Origin: a virus
Length of the DNA stretch: 64,000 bases
Virus record (IMG/VR): IMGVR_UViG_3300037141_000243
Location: 1-64,000 of that record
Strand: one strand, 5' to 3'
Shown here: in pieces, positions 3,785 to 38,660 of the stretch
Numbering within the stretch: position 1 is the stretch's first letter
Layout: each line of letters opens with the position of its first letter
Program-made: the position numbers and the translations under genes
Notes under the pieces: generated by a model
Databases searched by the model: none
Seen by the model: only the letters and a program-made list of their open reading frames with translations
What the model was told of the DNA's origin: nothing

Positions 3785-4318
3785 TCAGAACGCATTGGTG
3801 ACGGTTGCCCCGGCTGCAATCGGGCGATAACGCATGTAGTGCTTCCATGTGCCGGTCGTGGAGCCTACGGCAATGGTCAGGTTGATCGCACCCGCTTGGA
3901 CGACAATAGATCCAGGAACCGCCGTGATGCCCACGCCAGTCGCTTCCAGTAGTAACGCCGTATTTAGCGCCGTGCCCTGAAGAACGAGCATCTCGCCAAT
4001 TGCAGCAGAGGCGAGGGACGCGGACGCGGCAGAGATAGTGCCGGCAAGAGCGCCCAAGGTTGACAGCGTCGCCCATTGCGCGGTTGAAGCGGTTGAATCA
4101 TTCGCCGTCTGGCAAATTGAAACGAGGGAAAGAATCTGGATCGGGCCACCAATCACGCTGAAGACGTGGAGGGCGTTCGACATGACAGCGGCCCCCGTGA
4201 CTACTAGAGCGTCGCCGCCGCTACCAATGACGTCGCCGTTGGCATCGGTTTGAATGAGGACGGCGGCTTTGGTCGGGCTGGTACCGTAGGCAAGGGCGGG
4301 AATCGGGTTCTGAGACAT
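3785..4318 (-). CDS. Hypothetical virion protein
   Basis: ATG at 4318 with AAGGAG SD; Ala/Thr/Gly-rich; inside the structural operon. Confidence 0.6.
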   Translation of the reverse strand: MSQNPIPALAYGTSPTKAAVLIQTDANGDVIGSGGDALVVTGAAVMSNALHVFSVIGGPIQILSLVSICQTANDSTASTAQWATLSTLGALAGTISAASASLASAAIGEMLVLQGTALNTALLLEATGVGITAVPGSIVVQAGAINLTIAVGSTTGTWKHYMRYRPIAAGATVTNAF

Positions 4319-36342: not shown

Positions 36343-38340
36343 CTACCCACCCAGCACTAAAGTACCGCAGGCCAGCACGAGAGGGCTGATCCCATCGCCT
36401 TGCGCGAAAGGCTGCGCGAAGGCTTCCAGCACGGCGAACAGGCTACCTTTGGGCTCGCCCTTGGTGCCCATAATGACCGAAGTCACATAGCCGCGTACAA
36501 CGTGGCGAATTGATTCCGGATTGACATCCTTTTCCTTCAGACCAACCAGGATATCCCTGATTTCACCCCAGGGCCGTCCCGCTACCAAGGCACGGGCCAA
36601 ATCGACCGCCTCGGTGCTTTCCTCGGCGCTACGGAGCAGATCACGGGCTTCCTCGATGGTCTTGGCCCCGGCACACGCACCCAGCGCAACAAGGCCAGCA
36701 CGCGGGCTGCCGTGCGCCTCCTTGGCGCAGAGCGATACGATTTGACGGCCCGCACCCGTCTGAAGGATTTTCTCGGCAACGGCTACGCTTTCTAACAGGT
36801 CGATGATCAGGTTGGTTGGTACATCTTTTAAGTTGTAAGCCGTGCAGCGGGTTTTGATATTGGTGGGGATTTTCCCCAGCTCGGTCGTGCAGAGGCACCA
36901 CCACGTATCTGGCGGCGGCTCTTCCAATGATTTAAGCAGGGACGCCCATGCCGGCGCTCCGAGGCGATGGCAATTATGCACCAATACATTATTTACAAAA
37001 TATGACGGATGCTTTTCAATCTCTAAATCGTAGAACGTGACATAGCCATCACACAACGCTTGATCTCGGTTACAACTTGCGGGCAAAATTTCAATACCTG
37101 CTCGTTGGTAACTCGTAACACTGTCCACCCTAAAGATTCCAGTTTCTTTTCCTTTTTGCGATCCTTCGCTTGATTTCGTTCCGAATTGTGCCCTTTCCCA
37201 TCTACTTCTATTGCTAATTTTATATGCGGAAAAGCCAAATCCACTTTGTAATTTGTAGGGTATCCGGGTAACCTTTTCCCCAAAGAAACAGCAAACTCTA
37301 CCGCACAGTTCAAACGCTTTAGTAACATAACCTGGGGCTTCGTTAGTTTTCCATTCCCACCCCGATTTTCCGGAAGAATTAAGTTCGTCCCATTTTTTAT
37401 TCTGGTAGCTATAATTTTGTCGATTACATCCCGTCGTTTTGTGGGGTTGTTTTTCTGCATCCGTTTGGAAGACAAACGGTCCAGCTTTTTGTAATACTCC
37501 GGGGAACGAATACGAGATTCCAAAACCCCACGAGAAACAGCTTCTTTCCAATAATCTGGACGCGGCCCAGTTCTTTTTGATGCCCCCAACTCGTCTCCAC
37601 AAACTTTCGAACAAGTCTGAATTCCCAAACCATTTGAACGCACATAAAAAGGCTCCCCACAAACCGGGCACTGCCTTCGCAGGCAAGTGGTGCAAGTTAT
37701 TTTGTTTGGCGCTCTGGCTTGAAAACTTATCCCACATGAGGAGCAAGTTTTGGTCCAACGTCTTTTTGCTCTGTAATTCATCACCAATTTGTAGATCGCA
37801 CGCGGCAACCCACCCCCTAGCTGTAAAAAACAAATGCTCTTTAGAGCAACAAATAGAGGATGATCCTATGCTTATTTGCATAACCCTTGCAAGAGGAATC
37901 TTGGACCGAAAAACAGAACTAACCCGCGACAACCCAAGCCCGCACACAATTTCTTGCCCCACACCAATCTGCTCAATTGGCAAAAACCCATTACCAACAT
38001 CAATCAACGTTCCTGGAGCAAAACATTCATCTACAATAATCACGCGGGCCTGGCTGCGACCGTGCATTTTGTAGCCCAAGGTTTCGGTAATCCGCCTCAT
38101 GTCATCGATGCTGGTAAAAGTCGCAGCGTCGATCTCCTGAATGGCGTGGTCCTTGGCCCCCACTTCGGTAGCAAGGATGCGGGCCAACGTGGTCTTGCCC
38201 GTACCCGATGGACCGGAGAACAAAAAGGTGTGGTTGCTCTTGGATTTGAGGACACGCCGCAAGGATGTAACCACGGCGTCCTGACCGATCACATCTTCAA
38301 AGGTCTTGGGACGGTATTTAAGGTAGAGGGATTCGGTCAT
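36343..38340 (-). CDS. dnaX: DNA polymerase III gamma/tau-like clamp loader ATPase, intein-containing
   Basis: LYLKYRPKTF.DVIGQ, GPSGTGKTT, IIVDE|..|CHRL, LLKSLEEPP, CTTE..KIP..IKTRC. Confidence 0.9.
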   Translation of the reverse strand: MTESLYLKYRPKTFEDVIGQDAVVTSLRRVLKSKSNHTFLFSGPSGTGKTTLARILATEVGAKDHAIQEIDAATFTSIDDMRRITETLGYKMHGRSQARVIIVDECFAPGTLIDVGNGFLPIEQIGVGQEIVCGLGLSRVSSVFRSKIPLARVMQISIGSSSICCSKEHLFFTARGWVAACDLQIGDELQSKKTLDQNLLLMWDKFSSQSAKQNNLHHLPAKAVPGLWGAFLCAFKWFGNSDLFESLWRRVGGIKKNWAASRLLERSCFSWGFGISYSFPGVLQKAGPFVFQTDAEKQPHKTTGCNRQNYSYQNKKWDELNSSGKSGWEWKTNEAPGYVTKAFELCGRVCCFFGEKVTRIPYKLQSGFGFSAYKISNRSRWERAQFGTKSSEGSQKGKETGIFRVDSVTSYQRAGIEILPASCNRDQALCDGYVTFYDLEIEKHPSYFVNNVLVHNCHRLGAPAWASLLKSLEEPPPDTWWCLCTTELGKIPTNIKTRCTAYNLKDVPTNLIIDLLESVAVAEKILQTGAGRQIVSLCAKEAHGSPRAGLVALGACAGAKTIEEARDLLRSAEESTEAVDLARALVAGRPWGEIRDILVGLKEKDVNPESIRHVVRGYVTSVIMGTKGEPKGSLFAVLEAFAQPFAQGDGISPLVLACGTLVLGG
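36973..38025 (-). mobile_element. Intein (351 aa) inserted after the Walker B DE of the clamp loader
   Basis: Starts CFAPGTLI; block B-like CSKEHLFFT; block F FYDLEIE..SYF; ends VHN followed by extein Cys. Confidence 0.92.
37023..37781 (-). CDS. Vsr/DUF559-like endonuclease nested in the intein in an alternative frame
   Basis: CxxC zinc fingers; YKVDLA...KLAIEVDG..H......D..KE..L..LGWTVLR. Confidence 0.85.
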   Translation of the reverse strand: MNYRAKRRWTKTCSSCGISFQARAPNKITCTTCLRRQCPVCGEPFYVRSNGLGIQTCSKVCGDELGASKRTGPRPDYWKEAVSRGVLESRIRSPEYYKKLDRLSSKRMQKNNPTKRRDVIDKIIATRIKNGTNLILPENRGGNGKLTKPQVMLLKRLNCAVEFAVSLGKRLPGYPTNYKVDLAFPHIKLAIEVDGKGHNSERNQAKDRKKEKKLESLGWTVLRVTNEQVLKFCPQVVTEIKRCVMAMSRSTI

Positions 38341-38660
38341 GTATGCCTCAAGGTCCTGTATTCAATGGGACGCCCCGCAACTTTTGCAGCAGCTATTCCG
38401 TACTCCATACCCCGCGATATTCCACGATCCGTATAAACTACCGTAGCAGCGGCAACAGCGCCCCAAGCCAAACCGGCATCAATACCCCATTGGCGCTCTT
38501 CAATTACTTCATCGCGCAGGATACCTGGCTGGGTGTAAAGCAAATGAGATGCGAACGGAGCTTCGCCCTTTAACAAGCAATCACACAGGGCCGACCGCGC
38601 ATATTTTAGATTAGCCTCAACATCTCCGGCGTATGGGCTTTCCACAATCACCAATCTCAT
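38337..38660 (-). CDS. Nucleoside deoxyribosyltransferase-like fold protein (putative)
   Basis: VIVESPYAGD..N..YAR...G.APFASHL, GISRGMEYGI. Confidence 0.5.
   Translation of the reverse strand: MRLVIVESPYAGDVEANLKYARSALCDCLLKGEAPFASHLLYTQPGILRDEVIEERQWGIDAGLAWGAVAAATVVYTDRGISRGMEYGIAAAKVAGRPIEYRTLRHT

What the first reader, a model, noticed from the sequence alone, without database searches (positions are those of the whole stretch)
36973..38025. Intein whose endonuclease is encoded in a different, fully overlapping reading frame
Seen: the clamp-loader frame stays open through a 351-aa intein, but its central ~250 aa look like non-domain filler. The +1 frame carries a zinc-finger plus Vsr/DUF559 nuclease. 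Its ATG (37781) lies inside the codons GAT GAA that end the N-terminal splicing region (DLQIGDEL), and its stop (37023) falls inside block F (FYDLEIE). About 760 nt are therefore dual-coding and stop-free in both frames. Known: inteins normally carry the nuclease in frame, and Vsr-like nucleases are reported between split-intein halves. I recall alternate-frame cases in phages, so this may be rare rather than new. Inference: an intermediate between contiguous and split inteins, with separate control of nuclease expression.
Basis: partly seen in the sequence, partly recalled or inferred. Interest (0 to 1): 0.8.

Follow-up and report, generated by a model that had tools for sequence, protein, structure and literature searches.

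The report
Intein with overlapping +1-frame homing nuclease
A phage clamp-loader gene carries a self-splicing insert (intein) whose middle also encodes, one base out of step, a complete Vsr-like DNA-cutting "homing" enzyme; the layout is real, kept by selection and common in phages, but this kind of layout has already been described for other inteins.

Summary
The 665-aa clamp-loader ORF (36343-38340, minus strand) holds a 351-aa class-1 intein (36973-38025) at the Walker B site (DE|C). A 261-aa ORF (37023-37808) lies wholly inside it in the +1 frame. It encodes two zinc ribbons and a DUF559/Vsr-like (EDxHD-type) nuclease.

The host frame has 0 stops where 17.8 are expected. Independent assemblies show no indels. 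The same layout holds in 26 of 29 viral and 77 of 80 metagenome loci that encode a nuclease relative. These sit in clamp loaders, SNF2 and DEAD helicases and terminases, always at DE|C.

Substitutions in seven close pairs show purifying selection on the nuclease frame (omega-like 0.33). The host frame shows none (0.99). The host-frame middle folds to nothing. The nuclease folds well and resembles I-Bth0305I and Vsr.

The layout is a stable design, not a transient intermediate. Fractured (split), single-stop, free-standing and in-frame relatives do exist.

Out-of-frame intein nucleases were described in 1998 and in 2025-26 preprints. I found no report of a same-strand +1-frame Vsr-like nuclease in a contiguous intein. 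This scan has noted the layout many times on other DNA (46 notes). Expression, splicing and cleavage are inferred.

The parts
36343..38340 (-). Clamp-loader (DnaX-like AAA+) gene including the intein; 665 codons plus stop
   Evidence: phrog_5846 5e-55; PF13177, PF00004.
38026..38340 (-). N-extein, aa 1-105, ending in Walker B ...IIVDE
   Evidence: aligns with residues 4-105 of the intein-less Pan1 clamp loader.
36973..38025 (-). Class-1 intein, 351 aa, Cys1 ... His-Asn, followed by Cys+1
   Evidence: C1, block-B His64, V349 and N351 invariant in 20 of 20 sequences; H350 in 90% or more. (HINT fold; best match gp41-1 intein 6qaz, E 2.7e-7).
37756..38025 (-). N-terminal splicing region (intein residues 1-90; blocks A and B)
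   Evidence: mean pLDDT 88-96 in the 10-residue blocks; conserved blocks.
37138..37755 (-). Host-frame linker (intein residues 91-296). No predicted domain; kept free of stops
   Evidence: pLDDT below 50 for 111-124, 130-135, 137-254, 257-294. (stop avoidance). (host-frame omega-like 0.99 in relatives).
36973..37137 (-). C-terminal splicing region (intein residues 297-351; blocks F and G). Residues 297-335 share their DNA with nuclease residues 215-252 (ATG numbering)
37023..37808 (-). Nested +1-frame gene for the Vsr-like/EDxHD homing endonuclease (261 aa from TTG 37808; 252 aa from ATG 37781; stop 37025-37023)
37813..37818 (-). SD-like AGGGGG, 4 nt upstream of the TTG at 37808 (candidate ribosome-binding site; inferred)
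37599..37745 (-). Two CxxC...CxxC zinc-ribbon units of the nuclease (TTG numbering: C22/C25/C39/C42 and C47/C50/C66/C70)
   Evidence: conserved Cys pairs in relatives. (four short strands at ATG-numbering 9-46).
37056..37253 (-). Nuclease catalytic domain (DUF559 match, aa 186-251 in TTG numbering), holding invariant E192, D194, H198, D207 and K210 (ATG numbering)
36346..36972 (-). C-extein, aa 457-665, starting CHRL...

Best explanation
This is a mobile intein of a phage clamp-loader gene, built as two overlapping genes on one strand.

Shown:
- The clamp-loader frame reads straight through a 351-aa class-1 intein inserted at the Walker B motif (DE|C).
- Only the two ends of the intein (about residues 1-90 and 297-351) form the HINT splicing domain. 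The roughly 200 residues between them are a structureless tether.
- On the tether, the only visible constraint is that it must not contain a stop.
- The same DNA, read one base further on, encodes a 252-261-aa protein with two zinc ribbons and a Vsr-like (EDxHD, DUF559) nuclease domain. That frame is under purifying selection in relatives.

Inferred:
- The precursor is translated whole and splices to give a 314-aa clamp loader with the restored DECHRL motif.
- The nuclease is made separately by internal initiation on the same mRNA. The start is either TTG 37808 behind an AGGGGG, or ATG 37781.
- The nuclease cuts intein-less clamp-loader alleles of co-infecting relatives near the DE|CH codons.
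- Repair from the intein-bearing copy then spreads the element (homing).

About 117 nt at the 3' end encode confidently folded parts of both proteins at once.
For: Anatomy.

Families. The nested ORF hits DUF559 at 4e-12 and the host is a clamp loader at 5e-55.

Intein boundaries are exact. The intein-less clamp loader of Pseudanabaena phage Pan1 aligns with the N-extein up to ...IIDEC and continues CHRLS... with the C-extein.

Splicing residues are conserved. C1, His64, V349 and N351 are invariant in 20 of 20 sequences, and H350 is nearly invariant.

Folds:
- Intein ends pLDDT 88-96, middle below 50.
- Foldseek top hit for the intein model is the gp41-1 intein 6qaz, E 2.7e-7.
- Nuclease model pLDDT 86.6.
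- Its top hits are I-Bth0305I 3r3p (E 1.1e-3, TM on target 0.68), 3hrl, and Vsr 1cw0/1vsr.
- 16 invariant residues in 53 sequences, including E192, D194, H198, D207 and K210.

Selection for an open host frame:
- 0 stops against 17.8 expected, with 0 of 2000 permutations stop-free. The same held in all 20 sequences tested, with at most 0.001 of permutations stop-free.
- No T-ending codon before 71 risky codons in the window. Across 96 sequences the count is 1 of 7843 risky codons, against 28.5% T-ending elsewhere.

Selection on the nuclease frame:
- Nucleotide identity at its codon positions 1/2/3 is 0.517/0.564/0.382 over 184 columns and 20 sequences.
- In 7 close pairs with 207 substitutions, omega-like is 0.33 in the nuclease frame and 0.99 in the host frame. 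Changes silent only in the nuclease frame are 41% observed against 19% expected.

Recurrence:
- 26 of 29 viral loci and 77 of 80 metagenome loci have the nuclease nested in an open host frame at nuclease minus 1.
- 19 of 19 non-redundant viral loci have DE|C ... (H/S)N|(C/S) boundaries.

No indels in contigs of four other runs.

Start codons with SD-like motifs precede the nuclease ORF in many relatives.
Against: - No expression, splicing or cleavage data exist for this element. No RNA run was available.
- The window has no close relative, so the substitution test rests on other family members, not on this copy.
- That test is a crude count. It has no multiple-hit or transition/transversion correction.
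- The start codon is unresolved. ATG 37781 has no SD at a usable distance. TTG 37808 has AGGGGG only 4 nt upstream.
- No promoter-like site lies inside the intein.
- One contig of another sample carries C>A at 37067. This puts a stop 14 codons before the nuclease's end, so some copies may be decaying.
- Structural matches of the nuclease are modest by E-value (1.1e-3).
Confidence: 0.8

Rival explanations
1. Assembly or sequencing artefact: two compensating indels hide an ordinary in-frame nuclease domain.
For: In-frame versions of this nuclease do exist inside inteins of SF1 helicases (P0034-36).
Against: - Contigs from four other runs in three studies show no indels over the stretch.
- 103 of 109 related loci from unrelated samples have the same +1 offset.
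- The host frame is stop-free against 17.8 expected stops. An artefact would not produce that.
Confidence: 0.01
2. The layout is real but this copy is a relic. The nuclease is no longer expressed or active, and the element is now only a vertically inherited intein.
For: - A variant contig carries a premature stop near the nuclease's 3' end.
- No good SD lies before the ATG.
- No close relatives were found to show recent transfer.
Against: - The window's ORF is full length.
- It keeps all 16 family-invariant residues.
- It folds with pLDDT 86.6.
- Intein GC is 43.5% against 58% in the exteins, which suggests a fairly recent arrival.
Confidence: 0.1
3. The nuclease is made by programmed +1 ribosomal frameshifting from the clamp-loader frame. 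This would give an N-extein/Int-N/nuclease fusion instead of a separate protein.
For: Both frames are on one mRNA. The nuclease frame is open for 19 codons upstream of the TTG: 280 aa open frame against 261 aa from the TTG. dnaX genes of some bacteria are known for frameshifting (recalled, not from a call).
Against: - Start codons lie within 0-24 codons of the upstream stop in 19 of 19 non-redundant viral loci.
- SD-like motifs precede many of them.
- Free-standing and fractured relatives express the same protein alone.
- I did not search for a conserved slippery site.
Confidence: 0.04
4. It works as a split intein in practice. Int-C plus C-extein is also made from an internal start and joins an N-terminal fragment in trans, as in fractured genes.
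For: - The nearest solved splicing domain is the split gp41-1 intein.
- Fractured relatives exist (L070, L081).
- L007 has one host-frame stop.
Against: - The window's host frame has no stop.
- Strong selection keeps it open in 103 of 109 loci. A split intein would not need that.
Confidence: 0.03
5. The insert is a group I intron with a nuclease ORF, not an intein.
For: Vsr-like nucleases also live in group I introns (I-Bth0305I).
Against: - Rfam finds no intron. The only hit is a chance sRNA at E 0.1, 23 bits against 80 needed.
- HINT blocks and fold are present.
- The host frame is kept open.
Confidence: 0.01

Closest known systems
Non-canonical actinobacteriophage inteins (bioRxiv 10.1101/2025.01.02.630785; passages read)
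   Same: Contiguous phage inteins whose homing endonuclease is not in the intein's frame. The host-frame middle is unstructured. The overlapping ORFs are missed by annotation.
   Different: That paper reports antisense LAGLIDADG, antisense VSR-like, and a same-strand 'frame 3' endonuclease-VII-like nuclease. It says VSR-like nucleases were otherwise known only with split inteins. Here a VSR-like nuclease is on the same strand in the +1 frame, in a clamp loader at Walker B. Its supplementary tables were not visible to me.
Cyanobacterial dnaX intein with out-of-frame endonuclease (bioRxiv 10.64898/2026.09.14.751524; abstract and sections 10 and 17 read)
   Same: Same host gene family (DnaX/clamp loader). 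The nuclease is in an overlapping frame. The host-frame region is disordered. Selection is frame-dependent, and SD motifs lie before the nested start.
   Different: There the nuclease is LAGLIDADG in a '+2 ORF' of cellular dnaX. Here it is a zinc-ribbon plus EDxHD/Vsr-like nuclease in the +1 frame of a phage gene. The intein lineage is closest to gp41-1.
Fractured genes: split inteins with a free-standing Vsr-like endonuclease gene between the halves (Dassa et al. 2009, PMC2677866; passages read)
   Same: Same nuclease family. Same strand order: Int-N, nuclease, Int-C. The nuclease 3' end overlaps the Int-C coding region. Phage DNA-metabolism genes are the hosts. The nearest solved splicing domain is gp41-1, labelled 'cyanophage-like' in the entry; that it is one of that paper's split inteins is from the passage. 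Two relatives found here are fractured in this way (L070, L081).
   Different: In fractured genes Int-N ends at a stop, a 27-51-nt spacer follows, and Int-C has its own start. Here the host frame runs through without a stop, so the intein is contiguous. That paper stated that Vsr-like domains were not known in inteins.
I-Bth0305I, prototype of the EDxHD homing endonucleases (Taylor et al. 2011, PMC3239194; passages read)
   Same: Best structural match of the nuclease model (3r3p). Vsr-like catalytic core with conserved E, D, H, D residues. An N-terminal DNA-binding region precedes a C-terminal nuclease domain.
   Different: I-Bth0305I sits in a group I intron of recA and has NUMOD-type motifs at its N-terminus. 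Here the N-terminus has zinc ribbons and the gene overlaps an intein frame. Direct sequence similarity is weak (phmmer E 0.13).
ShiLan-type out-of-frame HNH insertions in phage methylases (PMC11855218; passages read)
   Same: A nuclease ORF is hidden in another frame of an insertion that the host frame reads through without stops.
   Different: No splicing domain is detectable there, and the nuclease is HNH in the third frame. Here a complete HINT splicing domain flanks the overlap.

Membership tests
Class-1 intein (HINT splicing domain) | N-terminal Cys/Ser, block B (T/S)xxH, C-terminal His-Asn, and a nucleophile at +1 | tested here: met
   Cys1, S-K-E-H in block B...VHN, then Cys+1. C1, His64, V349 and N351 are invariant in 20 of 20 sequences.
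Class-1 intein (HINT splicing domain) | HINT fold | tested here: met
   The model's ends have pLDDT 88-96. Foldseek gives 33 PDB matches at E<=0.001; the listed ones are intein or Hint-type splicing domains, the best being 6qaz at 2.7e-7. The Pfam Intein_splicing hit is below its cut-off (25.7 against 35.8 bits).
Class-1 intein (HINT splicing domain) | Removal restores a conserved host motif | tested here: met
   The exteins align with the intein-less Pan1 clamp loader across ...IIDEC/HRL... with no gap.
Class-1 intein (HINT splicing domain) | Protein splicing activity | not testable with these tools
   Needs expression.
EDxHD / Vsr-like homing endonucleases (DUF559) | Sequence membership in DUF559 | tested here: met
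   PF04480 at 46.4 bits against a cut-off of 20.6. 3hrl at 9e-5.
EDxHD / Vsr-like homing endonucleases (DUF559) | Vsr-like fold of the catalytic domain | tested here: met
   The top Foldseek hits are 3r3p, 3hrl, 1cw0 and 1vsr, with probabilities 0.97-1.00 and TM on target 0.38-0.68. E-values are modest, 1e-3 to 2e-2.
EDxHD / Vsr-like homing endonucleases (DUF559) | Conserved acidic and His catalytic residues | tested here: met
   E192, D194, H198, D207 and K210 are invariant in 53 of 53 sequences. I did not map them residue by residue onto I-Bth0305I.
EDxHD / Vsr-like homing endonucleases (DUF559) | Cleaves the insert-less allele near the insertion site | not testable with these tools
   Needs enzyme assay.
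Non-canonical inteins with the endonuclease outside the intein's frame | A nuclease ORF inside the intein in another frame or strand, with the intein frame uninterrupted | tested here: met
Non-canonical inteins with the endonuclease outside the intein's frame | Purifying selection on the nuclease frame, none on the overlapped host frame | tested here: met
   Family level only. The window's own copy has no close relative.
Fractured genes (split intein plus free-standing endonuclease) | Int-N ends at a stop and Int-C/C-extein is a separate ORF | tested here: not met
   The host frame is continuous from 38340 to 36343. So this is not a member, although relatives L070 and L081 are.
Canonical (bifunctional) intein with in-frame endonuclease domain | The nuclease domain is read in the intein's frame | tested here: not met
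   The host-frame middle has no domain. The nuclease is only in the +1 frame.

The most novel reading that the evidence does not exclude
The +1-frame overlap would be the ancestral, long-lived ground state of a whole lineage of Walker-B-targeting phage inteins with Vsr-like nucleases, not an oddity.

The widely used split inteins of 'fractured genes' (the gp41-1 type) would then arise from this state by single stop mutations in the tether. L007 would be a caught intermediate. In-frame bifunctional inteins would arise from it by indels.

About 117 nt at the 3' end encode folded parts of both the nuclease and the splicing domain. If so, nuclease and intein are physically locked together and cannot be lost separately. 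That would explain why the design persists.
Probability: 0.3. Interest if true: 0.6.

Novelty: new variant of a known kind. Interest (0 to 1): 0.45.

Why it matters
- It shows that a large family of phage inteins carries its homing nuclease as a true overlapping gene. In the loci sampled here this layout is the majority (103 of 109). The nuclease family counts at least 1062 clusters at 50% identity with E<=1e-30.
- Gene callers and intein surveys would score these elements as 'mini' or 'decaying' inteins and call the nuclease a hypothetical protein.
- The family links three arrangements that are usually treated apart: contiguous, split ('fractured') and in-frame. This makes the origin of natural split inteins testable by simple mutations.
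- It is also a clean natural example of selection against stops alone in one frame of a dual-coding stretch.
- For this window alone, it is one more member of a layout that recent preprints describe in outline.

Tried and rejected
P0001 is 62% identical and has the same last six residues as the window's nuclease, so it probably has the same layout. That is unverified.
- Single-protein scans for close relatives found none: the C-extein in viral contigs and the nuclease in metagenome contigs. No dN/dS could therefore be made on the window's own copy.
I answered the question of intein-less alleles with tblastn against cultured phages instead.
- A hairpin masking the nested start gave z = -1.64, and 17 of 200 shuffles folded as well. 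This is not significant.
- No sigma-70-like promoter lies in 36900-38500.
- Rfam found no intron.
- No RNA holder was listed for the stretch, so nothing can be said on expression.
- The runs laid were contigs, not raw reads. They show that indels are absent from assemblies, not from every read.
- Gorbalenya 1998 is not held. I know it only through the citing passages.
- 'Not in print' rests on the searches only.
- I did not use complex prediction, the protein atlas or a tree of nucleases against host genes.
Full report
**1. What is there**

The window is part of a 72.8-kb virus record rated 98% complete. On the minus strand, ORF 36343..38340 encodes a 665-aa clamp loader of DNA polymerase. PHROGs gives phrog_5846 at 5e-55, and Pfam gives DNA_pol3_delta2 and AAA.

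Residues 106-456 (window 38025..36973, 351 aa) are an intein. It begins with Cys directly after the Walker B residues ...IIVDE. It ends ...VHN and is followed by Cys.

Removing it restores DECHRL. The 309-aa intein-less clamp loader of Pseudanabaena phage Pan1 aligns with the N-extein up to ...IIDEC. It goes on without a gap into the C-extein (CHRLS...).

All 30 listed cultured-phage matches span only about 880-925 nt in two pieces, so they lack the insert. Intein GC is 43.5% against 58% for the exteins.

**2. The nested gene**

ORF 37023..37808 (minus strand, 261 aa from a TTG; an ATG lies at 37781) is in the +1 frame relative to the host and lies wholly inside the intein.

It matches DUF559 (4e-12, above the curated cut-off) and REase_MTES_1575. 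Its N-terminal third has two CxxC...CxxC units.

With an alignment of 53 relatives, its AlphaFold model has mean pLDDT 86.6. The best PDB matches are the catalytic domain of the homing endonuclease I-Bth0305I (3r3p), the DUF559 protein 3hrl, and E. coli Vsr. E-values are modest (1e-3 to 2e-2), but probabilities are 0.97-1.00.

Sixteen residues are invariant in all 53 sequences. They include E192, D194, H198, D207 and K210 (ATG numbering). This fits the EDxHD family as described by Taylor et al. 2011 (passages).

**3. The host frame over the same DNA**

With an alignment of 20 inteins, the model of the intein in the host frame is confident at both ends. Blocks of residues 1-90 have pLDDT 88-96, and blocks from about residue 300 on have 63-95. 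It is below 50 for 111-124, 130-135, 137-254 and 257-294.

The confident part is a HINT domain. There are 33 PDB matches at E<=0.001. The best is the gp41-1 intein (6qaz; E 2.7e-7, 29% identity over 89 columns).

The conserved host-frame strings inside the 'filler' (for example ..LQSG..) lie over the nuclease's conserved GYPTNYKVD, so I read them as by-products.

At the 3' end, intein residues 297-335 share their DNA with nuclease residues 215-252. The intein part covers the strand before block F and block F itself. The nuclease part covers its last strand and helices, with pLDDT 94-98. About 117 nt therefore encode folded parts of both proteins.

**4. More than chance, and not an error**

Shuffling synonymous codons of the nested ORF gives a mean of 17.8 stops in the host frame. 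None of 2000 shuffles was stop-free, and 0 stops are observed. The third frame has 20 stops against 18.2 expected.

The mechanism is visible. A host-frame stop needs a nuclease codon ending in T before a codon starting AA, AG or GA. In the window, 0 of 71 such codons end in T, against 73 of the other 189. Over 96 family sequences the count is 1 of 7843, against 28.5% elsewhere.

Contigs of four other runs from three studies (peat metagenomes where labelled) cover most of 36700-38300 with no inserted or deleted letters. One contig spans 36700-37942, which covers the whole nested ORF. These are assemblies, not raw reads.

**5. It is a family**

Viral contigs:
- A scan with the nuclease returned 29 loci.
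- In 26 of them the nuclease ORF is nested in a longer ORF in the frame one base behind.
- All 19 non-redundant ones have an intein with DE|C(F)... at the start and ...(H/S)N|(C/S) at the end. The nuclease stop lies 8-68 nt before the intein's end. In the window the gap is 50 nt.
- The three exceptions are a clamp-loader intein with a single host-frame stop in the tether (L007) and two free-standing nuclease genes (L026, L029).

Metagenome contigs:
Of these, 547 were confirmed and the best 80 were kept.
- In 77 of the 80 the host frame has no stop across the match, while the third frame has 4-31 stops.
- The exceptions are one frameshifted copy (L046) and two loci where the nuclease gene is followed by a separate, overlapping Int-C/C-extein ORF and the host frame is full of stops (L070, L081). 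That is the 'fractured gene' layout.

Caveats: several loci are near-duplicates of each other, and some are cut by contig ends. For those, 'open' refers to the part that is present.

Hosts:
- Of the 95 nested loci examined, 55 are clamp loaders like the window's.
- Ten of the other 40 were scanned. They are SNF2 helicases, ResIII/DEAD helicases, a helicase-methylase and a terminase large subunit. Two gave no host-family match at E<=1e-5 (L014: Hint_2 only; L083: no family).

A search among longer proteins found three SF1 helicases (807-829 aa) with the same nuclease in frame inside an intein at VDEC|L....

A profile search of 1.84 billion cluster representatives gave 1062 proteins at E<=1e-30 and 4566 at E<=1e-10.

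**6. Which frame is selected**

Over 184 well-occupied columns of 20 nucleases, nucleotide identity is 0.517, 0.564 and 0.382 at nuclease codon positions 1, 2 and 3. The wobble pattern therefore belongs to the nuclease frame.

In seven gap-free close pairs (207 substitutions), a simple count gives omega-like 0.33 for the nuclease frame and 0.99 for the host frame. Changes silent only in the nuclease frame are 41% of the total against 19% expected. Changes silent only in the host frame are 17% against 19%.

The window itself is not in any pair. The count is uncorrected.

**7. How it most likely works**

Shown:
- two overlapping open frames;
- a complete splicing domain;
- a well-folding Vsr-like nuclease;
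- selection against host-frame stops;
- purifying selection on the nuclease frame in relatives;
- intein-less alleles in related phages.

Inferred:
- read-through translation and cis-splicing;
- separate translation of the nuclease from an internal start;
- cleavage of empty DE|CH sites, followed by homing.

For the start, TTG 37808 has AGGGGG 4 nt upstream. ATG 37781 sits where many relatives start, just after the G-D codons, which in those relatives read GGAGA(T/C) and look like an SD. In the window, however, those codons are GGTGAT. Genes of this phage use AGGAG-type SDs. No internal promoter or significant start-masking hairpin was found.

**8. Comparison with what is known**

- Gorbalenya 1998 is cited for non-canonical inteins with the nuclease in another frame or strand. 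I saw only the citing passages.
- A 2025 preprint on actinobacteriophage inteins reports antisense LAGLIDADG, antisense VSR-like, and same-strand 'frame 3' endonuclease-VII-like nucleases. It says VSR-like nucleases were otherwise known only with split inteins.
- A 2026 preprint shows an out-of-frame LAGLIDADG nuclease in cyanobacterial dnaX inteins, with the same kind of frame-dependent selection.
- Dassa et al. 2009 described Vsr-like nuclease genes between split-intein halves, with 6-69 bp of overlap into the Int-C ORF. They wrote that Vsr-like domains were not known in inteins.

In the four literature searches I found no description of a same-strand +1-frame Vsr-like nuclease inside a contiguous intein, nor of its being the majority layout. 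Supplements were closed.

This scan's own notes hold 46 findings of such layouts in at least 44 genomes. They include another clamp-loader case. Those are leads, not evidence.

**9. Verdict**

It is not right that this is a transient intermediate.

It is a new variant (nuclease family, strand and frame, target site) of a kind already described. Interest is moderate.

Noticed in passing
window 37067: One contig of another sample (depth about 6) has C>A here. This turns nuclease codon 248 (TTG numbering) into a stop and cuts off the last 14 residues. In the host frame it is R425L. It is either a decaying nuclease allele or an error of a shallow contig.
   Followed up: partly
L007:3220-5364: A clamp-loader intein of the same family has exactly one stop (4180-4182) in the host-frame tether, while the nested nuclease ORF stays intact. 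It is a possible first step towards a split intein, or a dead or mis-assembled copy.
   Followed up: partly
L070:189-1984 and L081:224-1737: Fractured-gene layout in relatives. The nuclease gene is followed by an overlapping Int-C plus helicase C-extein ORF, and the host frame over the nuclease has 14-18 stops. The N-terminal halves are not on the fetched DNA.
   Followed up: partly
P0034, P0035, P0036 (proteins): SF1/UvrD-type helicases with an intein at VDEC|L... that carries the same Vsr-like nuclease in frame and lacks the zinc-ribbon part. Dassa 2009 wrote that Vsr-like domains were not known in inteins, and I found no report of in-frame ones in my searches.
   Followed up: partly
L046:45-2110: A clamp-loader copy in which N-extein and Int-N run into the nuclease frame half-way through. 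This is a one-base frameshift, either decay or an assembly error.
   Followed up: no
L023:2242-5610: The host helicase seems to carry a second, ordinary intein upstream near the P-loop, with LAGLIDADG-like motifs read in frame. So one gene would hold both a canonical and an overlapping-frame intein.
   Followed up: no
L001-L110, intein N-termini: All inteins of this family sit at the same Walker B DE|C position. This holds in clamp loaders, SNF2 and DEAD helicases, a helicase-methylase and terminases. It suggests repeated jumps between unrelated P-loop ATPase genes through the shared motif.
   Followed up: partly
window 36343-38340 versus cultured phages: The nearest cultured relatives of the clamp loader are phages with genomes of 71-79 kb (Pseudanabaena Pan1, Edwardsiella ZHS, Dinoroseobacter R5C, Vibrio SSP002-like). 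Identity is 34-43%, and all 30 listed lack the intein. Runs that hold the window's DNA are peat metagenomes where labelled.
   Followed up: partly
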